Counted from the first letter of the whole stretch, positions 50,764-55,977 are shown. The stretch: 62,019 nt of DNA, filler included, from 10 parts of 10 records of this genome joined end to end with filler, not necessarily neighbours in it, one strand, 5' to 3'. Notes: generated by a model from the sequence alone, not told the origin. Made by a program: numbers and translations.

Positions 50764-53700
50764 TCACCATACAACGTTGAAACCCTCTGCGCGTAGTCTG
50801 TCGGCCATTTTTTGTGTGACCTCTTTGGAGGGAGTTGGCACCTGCACGAGGGAGGGTAAGATGAGGGGTCCTTCCCAGAGAATCAGGTGCAGAGATCGAC
50901 ACACCCCTTCTAGTGGATAGGACAGGTTAAGCATTTCCCATTTGTGAACGCCGAGAGTGTGGTCTGCATGCATGGGTGAGGAGGATATCATCACGAGAGC
51001 CTACGCACAGGGAAGAAGTTCCACGCGCTCGACATTAGGTTGGTTCTTGACCAGACGAATGAGACCCTAGGGAGTGCTTTGCGTGAGAGAGAGAAAGAGA
51101 AAGACGGATACGCAAGCCAACCGTGAGAGCGTCCTCTGAGTCGGTATATCCGGGAACGACGACGTAGCGGAACCATATGGGTATCTGATGCATTTCTCAG
51201 TTGGCACGAACAAGAACGGTCGGGGGCAGGACAGACCTGATACGCTGCTACGGTCTTGAGGAAGGCGTACATGCGCCGAACGTTGCCACGACCTGTGATA
51301 CGACGATATCCCTCAGCTCCGGCTTGCTGGTGTGGTTGATTTGTATCGTGTTAGAGTCAAGATAGGAACGATCTCACAGACACGGACACACTTTCGTGCA
51401 CAGAAGAACCGTGTCGGTGTATGGAAGGACAAGATGCCAATTCGATGTACGAGCATACCTGAATGGCTGAAATAAGCCATCCATCCGCCTCACATGATTC
51501 AAGCGTACCCTGTCGTTTCCAAAACTGTCGTGAGACCCATTTCCTTTGCCGCCTGTTCCATGTTGTGAGTGTACAGCCGCAACCATCACCCCACGGCAGA
51601 AAGACCTTGAAGATAGCCCCACAGAATTCAGGTTGCATCAGTGGTTCTCCCCCAGAACACGTGATCCCGCCCCCTGACGGCTTCAAATAGGGAAGACACT
51701 TGCGCACTTGTTGTATCAGCTCCCCAACGGTCATGGCCTTTCCCTCCGTGGGATCCCATGTATCTGAAACAAATGGTAAACCCTAGACTGCCCCTGAAAC
51801 GTCTGCCAACATACCAGGATTGGAGCAGAACAGGCAACGCAATGGACAACCTTGCAGGAAAATCAAGAAACGAATTCCATCGCCCTCTGTGGTTGAAAAG
51901 GATTCATAGGAGTGGAATCGTCCTTGGATGGCCATATAATCACGATCACACAAAGGGTCAATGCGTGGTATGATGTCCTCCTCTTCGTCCTCGTCCTCCT
52001 CCTTTAGCATATCTTCAAGATCCAGAACACTAGCCTTGTGTGCAGACGGAGTGAATCGCAGAGGTTCTTCTGTGCACCAGCAGGACGATGAGCTACAAGA
52101 GCGTCACTTCCCTCTCAACATCAACAACGTACGCTGCTTCTCTTGTGTAAATTGCTCTTCTTCACCTCGAAACACTCGGACAGCAGCGAAGAGTTCCTTC
52201 AACCAGGGTTTGAGTTTGGTACGAAAACTGATTCAAACGTCAACTCTGTGGTGGGGACTGAGAACAACCAAACACACCCGCCAGTGTCTTGATCATCACC
52301 AAGACCCAATGGAACAAGTGGTGTGGAACCAAGTTCACAGAGACGTCTTGACAAGAGTTTCGCTGCCTGCCCACCCCACAAAGGAAAAAAAGAAAACTCC
52401 TCAGAACATCCTATATCGGACGGACGAACAGACCTCATTGAAGCGTTCGTACGAACTGTCGCCTAGTCCGAATACCGCGTGCTTTGTATGCGCAAGTGTA
52501 TCAGACAGAAGACTCACTTCAGAAAGGCGACTCCAGAACGACTGATGGCACGAGTCAGATGAGAATGGGACGATTGGTCCTGTCCATCTCACCAAGGCAT
52601 TATCGGGGAAGCGACCCAATTTTCCGTACGTCGAACACACAAGAATCATACATTTATACCGGGCAAGCTCACGCTAAGTTTGAGGGAGGAAATGTCAGAG
52701 GATTCTTCATGATGGGTCCCATGCACGACTTCAACGCACAACAGCCACATCGTTCAACACCTTCACCAGGGAACGAATTTTCATTCGTTGAAGATGACGC
52801 GCGATGCGCTTGGCAACTTCCTCGGAGTTACCTGTCCCGGTTCCAAATCTATGCAAACTCAGAAACTCTCCTGTTATCTGGTGGCATGGCGCACAGGACA
52901 GGAATGACAAGTTCCGCAGTATCAGGGGACCTGACAAGATTCGGTCTCGGCTCAACCAGAGGTGCCGTCCCCACTACAATTCGAGGAGAGTCTTCATATC
53001 TAATGTCATGTTCATCAATACCATGTCAACAGAAGCAGGCGATCCATCCGTACGCAATAGGCAATTTGGCTCCAGCTTCTTCTTGGACTCCATTCCAATC
53101 ACCCGCAGTAAACGAATCATCGAGCAGGTCATCAGAGTCCGAGGACGAGGGACTTGGACTTGCGCTCGGGACTTTGCGACGATACAGGGAATCGAGCGCA
53201 CCATATCTGTTGAGCGCGTCAGCACCCATCGAGGTACACGTGTACTCTTCCGTACTGTCTCTGCCTCTCAGCAATATCAAGGGCCAAGTGATCGTGCTTC
53301 TTCTGGGCCTGGTTTGGTGAACGTGAGACACCACCCCCACCACCACACAACAAGAAACAACGAACCTGCTGGGGATGAGACAAGGTTAACGAAGAGAAAC
53401 GAACTTCATTTGTTAGGAGATCAGCAAGTTCTCCGCGGGGCTGGCCTGAGTCCATGATAAGCGGGTTCTTTCCCTCTTCAGTCGAGTCGGGTTGTAGCTA
53501 GCGACACAACAGAATTCACATTGCGAACACAGACATCGTTCGTCACACACCGATAGAGCGTCCAGTATCCGGATTCTACGGCGCGTTTCATCTGTTTGTG
53601 TGAGTGGGACATTCCTGTGCATGTCACAGTCGGTACAGTCGACCATATCTCCCATTCTACATACACCCCACAACGAACCTCCCTTGATCCCATGTTCAAT

Positions 53701-55977
53701 GCATGCCGAATATGCGATGATCAGGGATGGTCCGTTGTAGTGTTCGGCTTCATAGAGAGCCTTCACAAGCTGGTTTTTGTCGGCACCAATGGCCACTGAG
53801 GCCACGTAGACGTGACCATATGTCATGGCTAGCCTCCCGAGATCCTTCTTCTTGGTTCCTTTCCCCAGAGTTGCATACCTGGATGGACACCCCACGTCAA
53901 CACAAACAAACCCCGGTCAACATCCTACTTGGCGATTGCTCCGCGTGGTGTGGCCTTGGACATCACTCCACTGTTGTTTGAATACGATTCCGTATCTAGT
54001 ACCAAGATGTTCACATCCTCCCCCATGGCAATCACATGATCAATGCCACCAAAGCCTTCGCATTGTGTCAAACAGAACCAAGGGACGTTGGGTGCATCAA
54101 CCGCACCGATATCGTAGGCCCATCCATCTCCTCCGATCATCCACATGGACTTCTTAGCCAGGAGATCTTTGTGACGGTAGATGGCACGTAGGTAGGGATG
54201 CACATCCAATGCGACACCTGCAGGGGCGCCTCCAAATCCGCTTCCGCAAAGAAGGACCTTTCCCCATCTGGTGATAAGCAAAGGAGTACCACAATCACAG
54301 AACACGTGTGATGAACCTTGATTCGTTGTGCCGCCACACGAGACTTGGCTCGGTTATCCCTACACTCGAGCCACATCGAGAGCTCCTTCTTAAGATCTTC
54401 TTGAATTAGATCTACCTTTCTCGTGTTACGAACAGATTCATGTGTTTGGGGGTACGGCACATACCGCTTGGAAGGTGAAGAGCCTGTTCCACATACCGCA
54501 CCAATTTCTTGCGCCTTTGAAAGTATGCTAAATGAATACCCAGGCCATACTCCGCGTTGTCCTGAAAAGAAAAGAGTAAGGGAAGGGGGTACGGGGATGC
54601 CTGATGTGCACGTGGTGCATGTACCTCAAAGAGAGAATTCGCCCATGCAGGACCGTGTCCCTGTGAGTTGACCGTGTATGCGGAGAAGGGGGCAGATCCA
54701 CCCCAGATGGAGGAACAGCCCGTTGCGTTTGCAATAATGAGTTGATCTCCAAACAGTTGGGTAACAAGCTTCACGTAAGGTGTTTCGCCGCATCCAGCAC
54801 AAGCCCCCGAGAATTCGAGAAGTGGTGGCTGAAACTGGCTTCCTTTCACAGTCTAACAAGGTGAGATGTGTGAATCCCCTCTCCTTAGCTAGCAGAAAAG
54901 GAGACTGTCCCTACGTTCTTGGGAACAAGATCCGGGTCCAGACTGGGAAGTTTGAGAGCAAATTCATAGTTGGCCGACTCGACGGACATGACGTCCTCAA
55001 TGGGGCGAAGTTCCAGGGCGTTGTCCTCGCACACCTACCGACGAGCAGATACCCTCGTGAGTTGGGTCCTTCACAAGAAGGAACTACGCACCTGCACGCA
55101 TACACCACATCCTGTACAATCCCGTGGAGATACTTGCACTCGAAATCGGTGTTTCTTGGATGGAGAATTATTCATGAGTGCGACACAACAGATTGAATCC
55201 ACGTACCTTTTCGCCGCCAATTCCCGCAGCTCTGATGGACTTGAACGTACGTGGGGCGTTCTTAGCTTGATTTTCGTCGAGAAGATAGGGTCGGATCGCC
55301 GCATGAGGACATGAGAATGCACACTTGTGTGGGCCCAAAGGGATGAGCTGTGATCGATCCATACAGGTGGACGGGACAAACCTCATTGCACTGACTGCAA
55401 TCATCTCTCCTCCATACAGGAATCGCACTGGCCACAGCGCGTTTCTCAAACTTGGTGGTTCCTATGGGCATGACTCCCCCGGGAGTGAACTGGTTTATCT
55501 CAATCAGTCACTCTTTCCCAGCAAAATGGTCCTCGTCTAACCTTTGAGACAGGGAGTTCGTCCCCTTTCAGCAAGGAAACGGGAAGAAGCACCTCTCGTA
55601 CGAAAGACGGTGCATCGGTCGCCAATTGAATAGGCCACTCACCGTCCATGTCTTCCCATGCTGCAGGATAGTTGACCTGTCCCATCCCCTGGTCAGTCGA
55701 GTGTACAAATGGAGGCGTCCCCACCTTACGGATTGCATCGTGAGCCTTATCCACCAATACCCAGTTTTTCTTGACCACGTCTTCCCCCTTGCGCATGTAC
55801 ACACGCTGAATGGTATCCTTCAAGTATGGGACCTGAATAGATAGATGTTCCGTCATCACAACTGTCAGGTGTCCCGCATACTGGCGTACATATCGCTCCC
55901 TGGTAAGAAGATTGGGAATAAGAGCAAAGAAGAGAGTTGTCATTATCATATTCACGCGTCCAGGCAACCCTTCGTCC
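50764..55977 (-). CDS. Eukaryotic pyruvate:ferredoxin oxidoreductase-flavodoxin-PFL activating enzyme fusion, about 31 introns (5' partial)
   Basis: Manual splicing gives PFO ([49 protein letters not shown]), then flavodoxin ([30 protein letters not shown]), then PflA ([30 protein letters not shown]). Stop at 50764-50766; one indel near 53475. Confidence 0.85.

What the first reader, a model, noticed from the sequence alone, without database searches (positions are those of the whole stretch)
50764..55977. Single-chain PFO-flavodoxin-PFL activase: a self-contained radical-activation wire
Seen: splicing canonical introns 53309-53365, 53207-53255, 53000-53053 and 52849-52894 carries the PFO frame through a Ser/Asp-rich linker into flavodoxin ([16 protein letters not shown]), which has no in-frame Met of its own. 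Intron 52070-52132 then leads via an acidic linker (EEDEDEEED) into a complete PflA-type radical SAM domain. Known: PFL activase needs reduced flavodoxin, which PFO can supply; in PNO the same position holds an FAD/NADPH reductase module. Inference: pyruvate oxidation directly powers glycyl-radical installation on PFL, linking two anaerobic pyruvate routes. I recall similar predicted fusions being mentioned for a few eukaryotes, so novelty needs checking; I know of no biochemical characterisation.
Basis: partly seen in the sequence, partly recalled or inferred. Interest (0 to 1): 0.9.

Follow-up and report, generated by a model that had tools for sequence, protein, structure and literature searches.

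The report
PFO-flavodoxin-PFL activase fusion gene
An unidentified microbial eukaryote carries an intron-rich gene that joins a pyruvate-oxidising enzyme, a flavin electron-carrier domain and very probably the activator of pyruvate formate-lyase in one protein, so the activator would bring its own electron supply.

Summary
The finding lies on one eukaryote-like contig (48090-56024) among prokaryote-like contigs. On its minus strand, 31 short GT-AG introns give one open frame. It runs from the C-terminal ~620 residues of pyruvate:ferredoxin oxidoreductase (PFO; the 5' end is cut off by the contig end), through a Ser/Asp linker into an FMN domain of the diflavin-reductase type. It then passes an acidic linker into a complete PflA-type radical-SAM domain and stops at 50766-50764.

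Contigs of a second public run from the same sample (X2) lack the introns. They bridge 53365-53309 and 53255-53207 directly, and 53053-53000 by a 15-letter overhang. So PFO and the FMN domain lie on one spliced transcript.

The FMN-to-PflA intron (52132-52070) was not in the truncated joint list. It is supported only indirectly, by splice signals, coding bias, shuffles and depth arithmetic.

No fused relative turned up in any sequence search, and no mention in the papers I could read. Stairs et al. 2011 was not held.

Verdict: the PFO-FMN fusion is real (~97%) and the triple fusion is likely (~80%). The function is inferred. This is a new variant of the PNO kind.

The parts
53256..55977 (-). 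16 exons and 15 introns for the C-terminal ~620 residues of PFO (domain III end, EKR, 2x[4Fe-4S] ferredoxin domain, TPP-binding domain, C-terminal tail). The 5' part of the gene lies off the contig.
   Evidence: Spliced alignment to the bacterial PFOR P0013, residues 568-1181. 53% identity over 630 aa after correction from the transcripts. Two exons hit TIGR02176 and one hits EKR. Eight of these introns appear as X2 joints.
53471..53472 (-). One-base difference: the X2 contig carries an extra base in a G/C run that the window lacks. With it, the PFO frame is continuous.
   Evidence: table 4 (put in behind 53471, depth 20.9). One search reads through with X at the break.
53207..53255 (-). Intron (49 nt, GTACGG..CAG, CTGAC branch-like motif) that removes the would-be PFO stop codon at 53221-53219.
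   Evidence: X2 joint 53206>53256, one contig, depth 20.9.
53054..53206 (-). Linker exon 1 (51 codons, Ser/Asp-rich).
   Evidence: Open frame. Covered by X2 record 12 together with PFO exons. The coding-bias score does not separate frame 0 from frame 1.
53000..53053 (-). Intron (54 nt, GTACGG..TAG).
   Evidence: The 15 loose letters of X2 record 12 equal 52985-52999.
52895..52999 (-). Linker exon 2, ending in the first beta-strand of the FMN domain.
   Evidence: Open frame. Placed in X2 record 11 by its length and by bin depths.
52849..52894 (-). Intron (46 nt, GTGCGC..TAG).
   Evidence: Splicing is inferred from the length of record 11 (399 nt) and three depth bins that fit within 0.04. It fails my strict branch-motif filter.
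52133..52848 (-). FMN (flavodoxin-like) domain: 5 exons and 4 introns (52739-52674, 52592-52542, 52433-52367, 52277-52228).
   Evidence: Pfam Flavodoxin_1 hits on two exons: 29 bits against a cut-off of 25, and 17.8 bits. Best solved relatives are the NDOR1 and CPR FMN domains. The 9 loose letters of record 11 equal 52357-52365.
52070..52132 (-). Junction intron (63 nt, GTACGT..CAG, CTCAT 23 nt before the 3' end). If it is retained, the frame stops at 52106-52104.
   Evidence: It passes the strict intron filter. Shuffle test: 57 of 3000. Depth arithmetic favours the spliced form. The joint was not printed.
51948..52069 (-). Acidic linker, in the same exon as the start of the PflA domain. It holds the ATG at 52012-52010.
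   Evidence: Coding-bias score 0.24 in frame against -0.30 out of frame.
50764..51947 (-). PflA-type radical-SAM domain (9 exons, 8 introns) with the CX3CX2C motif, ending at stop codon 50766-50764.
   Evidence: Spliced alignment to P0001, P0003 and P0006. 46.7% identity over 246 aa to the Amoebidium PFLA. Exons hit TIGR02493 at profile 2-35, 37-88 and 158-176. Six of the introns appear as X2 joints.

Best explanation
A microbial eukaryote of unknown identity has a single, transcribed, intron-dense gene. Its product is a homodimer-type PFO whose C-terminus continues into an FMN domain, as in PNO, and then into a PflA-type radical-SAM domain instead of the FAD/NADPH half of PNO.

Inferred mechanism:
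1. The PFO part oxidises pyruvate plus CoA.
2. Electrons leave through its three [4Fe-4S] clusters to the tethered FMN.
3. The FMN semiquinone or hydroquinone reduces the [4Fe-4S] cluster of the PflA domain.
4. That cluster cleaves SAM and puts the glycyl radical on PFL.

In E. coli the same chain is run by three separate proteins (PFOR YdbK, flavodoxin, PflA).

Shown: gene structure, domain identities, and splicing of PFO to the FMN domain. Likely: splicing of the FMN domain to PflA. Inferred: electron path, PFL as the target, and physiological role.
For: - **Continuous frame.** The frame is open through 31 GT-AG introns of 45-86 nt.
- **PFO identity.** 53% identity over 630 aa to PFOR P0013, and TIGR02176 hits.
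- **FMN domain.** Pfam PF00258 at 29 bits against a cut-off of 25. The best PDB matches are diflavin-reductase FMN domains.
- **PflA identity.** TIGR02493 is the best family for 3 of 4 exons tested. Exons 1 and 2 fall at adjacent profile positions 2-35 and 37-88, so there is no ferredoxin insert. CX3CX2C is present.
- **Transcript contigs.** X2 contigs lack introns at 15 printed joints, and 9 more joints were not printed. X1 contigs of the same sample keep the introns. Record 12 joins PFO exons to the linker and beyond.
- **Junction intron 52132-52070.** It has the commonest donor type, a branch-like motif and a typical length. Such intron-like segments are rare: 4 in 3468 nt of spliced CDS and 8 in 5214 nt of the opposite strand. 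Only 57 of 3000 dinucleotide shuffles of the 222 nt between the two domains allow an open path under the same rules, and 308 of 3000 with any GT..AG of 45-70 nt. The linker after the intron has coding bias in the right frame.
- **Depth arithmetic.** Arithmetic that reproduces 21 other bins within 0.1 has a single-contig integer solution only for 'both introns spliced'. The count of 22 known joints plus 2 equals the 24 reported.
- **Biochemical precedent.** E. coli flavodoxin reduces PFL activase (passage in PMC10979112). A pyruvate:flavodoxin oxidoreductase takes part in PFL activation (title of Blaschkowski et al. 1982, seen in a reference list).
Against: - **No printed joint across 52132-52070.** The depth argument assumes a single contig, and several contigs could fit other readings.
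- **X2 is not on record as RNA.** Its kind is a guess by the tool ('DNA?'). Reading it as cDNA is my inference.
- **An unspliced product is plausible.** Without splicing the frame would end 9 codons after the FMN domain, and an ATG follows 92 nt later. Convergent stop codons on this contig lie only 33 nt apart, so the genome is compact and short spacers are conceivable.
- **No fused relative was found anywhere**. The closest PFLA relatives (Amoebidium, Polychytrium) are stand-alone proteins with N-terminal extensions.
- **Weak points in the model.** Three of the 8 linker or FMN introns fail my strict filter. Linker exon 1 shows no frame preference in coding bias.
- **Missing context.** The N-terminal half of PFO and any PFL gene are unseen.
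- **No biochemical data.**
Confidence: 0.72

Rival explanations
1. There are two products. One is a PFO-FMN two-domain protein ending at the TGA at 52106-52104. The other is a separately translated PflA starting at the ATG at 52012, either from its own transcript or from an intron-retaining isoform. The genes would be neighbours, not one chain.
For: - No joint across 52132-52070 was printed.
- The unspliced frame ends soon after the FMN domain, and an ATG follows.
- The genome is compact: convergent stops lie 33 nt apart.
- PFOs with extra flavodoxin-like domains are reported in BaSk metamonads (passage in PMC11316075).
- The nearest PFLA relatives are stand-alone.
Against: - The segment has all the intron hallmarks of this gene and is in the right phase.
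- Shuffles reach an open path in only 57 of 3000 cases under strict rules, or 308 of 3000 under lenient rules.
- There is coding bias upstream of and across the ATG.
- 92 nt would have to hold a 3' end, a promoter and a 5' UTR.
- The retained-intron single-contig models have no integer solution for the X2 depths.
Confidence: 0.17
2. The three-domain protein is real but works otherwise. The radical-SAM domain might activate another glycyl-radical enzyme, or the FMN domain might mainly hand electrons to outside acceptors. The fusion would then not be a dedicated PFL starter.
For: - No PFL gene from this organism was seen.
- Exon 1 also matches other glycyl-radical activase families, with lower scores.
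Against: - TIGR02493 and PRK11145 (PflA) are the best families for the exons that hit anything.
- The ~65-residue ferredoxin insert typical of other activases is absent: TIGR02494 positions jump from 34 to 100.
- The closest relatives are eukaryotic PFLAs.
Confidence: 0.08
3. Artefact: a chimeric assembly that put unrelated genes side by side, or a decaying pseudogene.
For: - The window is a chain of unrelated contigs.
- The window sequence has a frameshift at 53471/53472.
Against: - All parts lie within one contig between N spacers.
- Independent Logan contigs of X1 (unspliced) and X2 (spliced) match at 99% or more: 14 of 14 and 10 of 11 records.
- The frameshift is absent from the X2 contig.
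- All catalytic motifs are intact.
Confidence: 0.03

Closest known systems
Pyruvate:NADP+ oxidoreductase (PNO) of Euglena, Cryptosporidium, Blastocystis, foraminifera and others
   Same: PFO is fused at its C-terminus to an FMN domain of the diflavin-reductase type, which takes electrons from the PFO clusters. Passages: PMC6732389 and PMC8153729. Here.
   Different: PNO continues with FAD- and NADPH-binding modules. Here only about 50 linker residues follow the FMN domain, then a PflA radical-SAM domain. The acceptor would be an Fe-S cluster, not NADP+.
E. coli PFL activation chain: pyruvate:flavodoxin oxidoreductase (YdbK), flavodoxin, PflA
   Same: The same three functions in the same order. 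Flavodoxin reduces PFL activase (passage in PMC10979112). The pyruvate:flavodoxin oxidoreductase route is named in the title of Blaschkowski et al. 1982 (reference list).
   Different: E. coli uses three separate diffusible proteins in a bacterium. Here they are one polypeptide in a eukaryote, and the FMN domain is of the CPR/NDOR1 type rather than a free long-chain flavodoxin.
Eukaryotic stand-alone PFLA (Amoebidium parasiticum EP00123 P005401 = P0001; Polychytrium aggregatum XP_052965057 = P0250)
   Same: These are the closest relatives found for the PflA domain: 46.7% identity over 246 aa and 42% over 264 aa. They share the CX3CX2C motif and the length of the catalytic core.
   Different: They carry N-terminal extensions that look like targeting peptides. 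The targeting role is my reading, not tested. They are not fused to PFO or to an FMN domain.
PFO with extra ferredoxin or flavodoxin-like domains in BaSk metamonads
   Same: PFO is extended by a flavodoxin-like module in anaerobic protists that also have PFL (passage in PMC11316075).
   Different: The text I could search does not mention a radical-SAM or PFLA domain. The architectures are listed in Supplementary Data 2, which I could not open.
PFL-PFLA fusion fragment P0271 (JGI metagenome)
   Same: This is another case of PFLA fused to a partner of its pathway. A PFL C-terminus with the glycyl-radical motif is followed by a linker and the PFLA start.
   Different: The fused partner is the substrate protein, not the electron donor. 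P0271 is a 274-aa fragment from a 1.9-kb contig, and its source names it AslB.

Membership tests
Homodimeric PFOR (NCBIfam TIGR02176) | Domains III, V (two [4Fe-4S] motifs) and VI (TPP binding) in one chain, in PFOR order | tested here: met
   53% identity over 630 aa to P0013 residues 568-1178. Exons hit TIGR02176 at profile 793-868 (141 bits) and 1012-1076 (93 bits). Two CxxCxxCxxxC motifs and the GDGW TPP motif are seen.
Homodimeric PFOR (NCBIfam TIGR02176) | N-terminal domains I and II (pyrimidine-binding half) | not testable with these tools
   The contig ends in an intron upstream of 55977. No N-terminal half lies elsewhere in the window. An X2 contig runs on for 134 letters, and their start translates like the preceding PFOR segment.
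PFL-activating enzyme PflA (TIGR02493 / PRK11145) | Radical-SAM CX3CX2C motif near the N-terminus, and the SAM-binding GGE motif | tested here: met
   CPLRCLFC in exon 52069-51815 and SGGEP in the next exon. Fer4_12 hit.
PFL-activating enzyme PflA (TIGR02493 / PRK11145) | Short form without the two-cluster ferredoxin insert of other glycyl-radical activases | tested here: met
   Exons 1 and 2 match TIGR02493 at profile 2-35 and 37-88. On TIGR02494 the same exons fall at 6-34 and 100-144.
PFL-activating enzyme PflA (TIGR02493 / PRK11145) | Whole-protein score above the curated cut-off (231.75 bits) | not testable with these tools
   A spliced protein cannot be handed to the family tool. Single exons give 50, 54 and 27 bits. 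Local BLASTP gives 245 bits to the Amoebidium PFLA.
PFL-activating enzyme PflA (TIGR02493 / PRK11145) | A PFL substrate in the same organism, and activase activity | not testable with these tools
   No genome is held. A 95-aa PFL C-terminal query finds nothing credible in the window.
Flavodoxin-like FMN domain (Pfam PF00258) | Match to the family above the gathering score | tested here: met
   ORF 52401-52673 scores 29 bits against a cut-off of 25 at profile 42-108. The N-terminal exon scores 17.8 bits at profile 3-32, below the cut-off on its own. NDOR1 FMN domain E = 2.8e-4.
PNO (PFO fused to a full CPR-like reductase) | FAD-binding and NADPH-binding modules after the FMN domain | tested here: not met
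   Only about 50 residues separate the FMN domain from the PflA domain. No FAD or NAD family was hit in any ORF piece scanned. It therefore works like the first two-thirds of PNO but is not a PNO.

The most novel reading that the evidence does not exclude
This would be a natural 'self-sufficient' radical-SAM enzyme. It is a PNO derivative in which the NADP+-reducing half was swapped for PFL activase. One chain would then need only pyruvate, CoA and SAM to switch on PFL. It would act as a built-in sensor that licenses the formate route only when pyruvate is plentiful and oxygen is absent. It would be the first radical-SAM activase found fused to its complete physiological reducing system.
Probability: 0.55. 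Interest if true: 0.82.

Novelty: new variant of a known kind. Interest (0 to 1): 0.68.

Why it matters
How radical-SAM enzymes get their electron in vivo is usually unknown, or is handled by diffusible flavodoxin or ferredoxin. A natural fusion names the donor chain outright. It would also offer a reagent-free activase for enzymology and for engineering PFL-based formate or acetyl-CoA pathways.

For the evolution of anaerobic metabolism in eukaryotes, it shows the PNO scaffold being re-used for a new acceptor. It also ties together the PFO and PFL routes, which are usually treated as alternatives.

Tried and rejected
**Homologue searches**
- Word-based search with the junction ORF: 9 hits among 94 candidates, all stand-alone activases of 232-319 aa.
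- Word-based search with the FMN ORF: 240 candidates, none significant.
- Word-based search with a PFO ORF: best 120 of 7996 listed, and none carries PF00258 or PF04055.
- Exhaustive HMMER search with the junction exon: 1850 hits at E<=0.001 and the best 150 listed. The longest is 362 aa, and none matches query residues 1-24 of the linker. I fetched 10 of the 150.

**Related loci**
- The FMN ORF found nothing in metagenome contigs (188 stretches) or in genome contigs (146 stretches).
- The junction exon gave 80 loci kept of 139. All 80 hold uninterrupted bacterial-type PFLA genes, and 0 of 80 have PFO or FMN/linker matches.

**Other look-ups**
- ESM Atlas returned only short Fer4_12 clusters.
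- Earlier findings of this scan: nothing by words or by sequence.
- No whole genome is held.
- Rfam: 0 matches in the window.
- No RNA holder was listed by the look-up of sequencing runs.

**X2 coverage gaps**
- X2 leaves 51730-51866 without cover, as well as several PFO stretches (54763-55124, 55487-55667).

**Model errors I corrected**
- My first spliced model had three wrong PFO introns (54455-54397, 54303-54218, 53546-53498). The X2 joints corrected them.
- The intron statistics used the uncorrected model.

**Papers**
- Five searches.
- Passages read in 12 papers.
- None mentions a PFO-flavodoxin-PFLA fusion.
- Not held: Stairs et al. 2011, PMC3190275, PMC4571565, PMC3937645.
- Supplements were closed, so Supplementary Data 2 of the BaSk paper, which lists PFO architectures, could bear on novelty.

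**Organism**
- I considered identifying the organism. The only lead is that its PFLA is closest to an ichthyosporean and a chytrid.
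Full report
**Context.** The window is a chain of ten contigs separated by N spacers. Nine of them have long uninterrupted ORFs, like prokaryotes. Only contig 48090-56024 has its coding sequence broken into short pieces. No whole genome is held, and Rfam finds nothing. The finding is therefore one 7.9-kb eukaryote-like contig from a mixed assembly.

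**Checking the observation.** I read the minus strand and aligned it, allowing GT-AG introns, to a bacterial PFOR (P0013) and to three PFL activases (P0001, P0003, P0006). The upstream contig end lies inside an intron, so the N-terminal ~570 residues of PFO are missing. No such piece lies elsewhere in the window.

**Domain identities.**
- The first ~620 residues are 53% identical to PFOR P0013 residues 568-1178.
- Two PFO exons hit TIGR02176 (141 and 93 bits). The EKR domain, both ferredoxin-type cysteine motifs and the TPP motif are present.
- After a Ser/Asp-rich linker of about 85 residues comes an FMN domain. It hits Pfam Flavodoxin_1 on two exons (29 bits against a cut-off of 25, and 17.8 bits).
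- The best solved relatives of this domain are the FMN domains of NDOR1 (E = 2.8e-4) and of cytochrome P450 reductases. It is therefore the diflavin-reductase type found in PNO, not a free bacterial flavodoxin.
- About 50 residues later, including the acidic run, a PflA-type domain begins. It has the CX3CX2C motif and is 46.7% identical over 246 aa to the Amoebidium parasiticum PFLA.
- Its exons match TIGR02493 at adjacent profile positions 2-35 and 37-88, so the ferredoxin insert of other glycyl-radical activases is absent.
- There is no room for, and no hit to, FAD or NADPH modules.

**Transcript-derived evidence.** The look-up of sequencing runs listed two runs of one sample, neither on record as RNA. 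When they were laid on the window, X1 gave unspliced pieces such as 52640-52929 and 53220-53450. X2 gave contigs with 24 joints, of which 15 were printed.
- All 14 printed joints on this gene skip CT..AC on the plus strand, which is GT..AG on the gene strand. The fifteenth is a GT..AG intron of the plus-strand neighbour gene.
- I read X2 as cDNA. If it is DNA after all, it would be an intron-less copy, which still records splicing at these sites.
- Record 12 (668 nt) runs from PFO exons through the linker exon 53206-53054. It then carries 15 letters identical to 52985-52999, so 53053-53000 is spliced too.
- Record 11 (399 nt) starts with 9 letters equal to 52357-52365. By its length and by three depth bins, it covers the FMN exons up to 52985 with the introns removed.
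- Another contig runs 134 letters beyond 55977 into sequence that translates like the preceding PFOR segment.
- The joints corrected three of my PFO introns.
- They also revealed that the window lacks one base at 53471/53472. With that base the frame is clean.
- PFO and the FMN domain are therefore parts of one spliced message.

**The FMN-to-PflA junction.** This is the open point, because the joint was not among the 15 printed.

In favour of splicing:
- The 63-nt segment has the commonest donor type (GTACGT), a CTCAT branch-like motif 23 nt from its end, a CAG acceptor, and the right phase.
- It passes a strict intron definition that 14 of 23 homology-anchored introns pass. That definition matches only 4 segments in 3468 nt of spliced CDS and 8 in 5214 nt of the opposite strand.
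- The linker after it has coding bias in frame: 0.24 per codon against -0.30 out of frame, compared with 0.22 +/- 0.09 for known exons.
- Only 57 of 3000 dinucleotide shuffles of the 222 nt between the two homologous regions allow an open path under the strict rules, and 308 of 3000 with any GT..AG of 45-70 nt.
- The X2 depths of 21 bins are reproduced within 0.1 from the listed records. For the three bins around the junction, only 'both neighbouring introns spliced' has a single-contig integer solution: depth 15.7, with 85 + 117 + 61 nt covered.
- The models that retain one or both introns have no such solution.
- The 22 joints I can account for plus these two equal the 24 reported.

Against:
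- The depth argument is indirect, and several contigs together could mimic it.
- The unspliced frame stops 9 codons after the FMN domain, and an ATG follows 92 nt later.
- The genome is compact. The convergent methylmalonyl-CoA mutase gene stops 33 nt from this gene's stop.

I put the triple fusion at about 0.8.

**Relatives and literature.** No search found a fused relative.
- Three word-based searches found none.
- One exhaustive HMMER search listed the best 150 of 1850 hits, the longest at 362 aa.
- Two metagenome scans and one genome scan found none. Of the 80 loci fetched, 0 had PFO or FMN matches.
- The Atlas added nothing.
- These collections hold few spliced eukaryotic proteins, so absence is weak evidence.
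- The nearest PFLAs, from Amoebidium and Polychytrium, are stand-alone.
- Five literature searches and passages from twelve papers gave no mention of this architecture.
- They did confirm PNO as a PFO-FMN-FAD-NADPH fusion.
- They also report PFOs with extra flavodoxin-like domains in BaSk metamonads.
- And they state that flavodoxin is the reductant of E. coli PFL activase.

**Mechanism and verdict.** The most likely working is a tethered version of the E. coli chain: PFO clusters to FMN to the radical-SAM cluster, then SAM cleavage and glycyl-radical formation on PFL. Only the anatomy is shown. The electron path and the target are inferred.

It works like PNO up to the FMN domain, but it fails the PNO membership test because it has no FAD/NADPH half. 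I class it as a new variant of a known kind, with interest 0.68. It would be a natural self-sufficient radical-SAM activase. It is held back by the unproven last junction, the missing 5' end, the unknown organism and the unread key literature.

Noticed in passing
window 53471-53472: The X2 contig (depth 20.9) has one more base in a G/C run than the window. Without it the PFO frame shifts. My first alignment hid this by choosing a false donor 4 nt away. It is either an assembly error or a strain variant. X1 does not cover the place.
   Followed up: yes
window ~49246-50730 (+): An intron-containing methylmalonyl-CoA mutase gene converges on the fusion gene. Its stop (50728-50730) lies 33 nt from the other stop (50764-50766). 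An X2 contig of the fusion gene reaches 50729, so it overlaps the mutase stop codon. One mutase intron (43 nt, GT..AG, 50623-50665) is spliced in X2.
   Followed up: partly
whole window: The window is ten contigs joined by N44-TTAATTAATTAA-N44 spacers. Nine look prokaryotic, with ORFs up to 771 aa. Only 48090-56024 looks eukaryotic.
   Followed up: partly
protein P0271 (JGI metagenome, 274 aa): This fragment joins the C-terminus of a PFL (glycyl-radical motif) through a linker to the start of a PFLA. It is a PFL-PFLA fusion that its source labels a sulfatase maturase.
   Followed up: partly
window 51505-51685: The X2 depth exceeds what the listed contigs explain by 3.7. One reading is partial retention of intron 51605-51553. 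The adjoining contigs stop at 51554 and 51616.
   Followed up: no
proteins P0010, P0011: Two database PFOR entries (785 and 1053 aa) hold internally repeated segments and scored highest for that reason. They look like assembly or gene-call artefacts.
   Followed up: no
window 56077-58844 (-): The next contig carries a 767-aa molybdopterin-type oxidoreductase ORF followed by a 4Fe-4S protein ORF, without introns. It is bacterial and unrelated to the finding. The family names are my reading of the translations and were not scanned.
   Followed up: no
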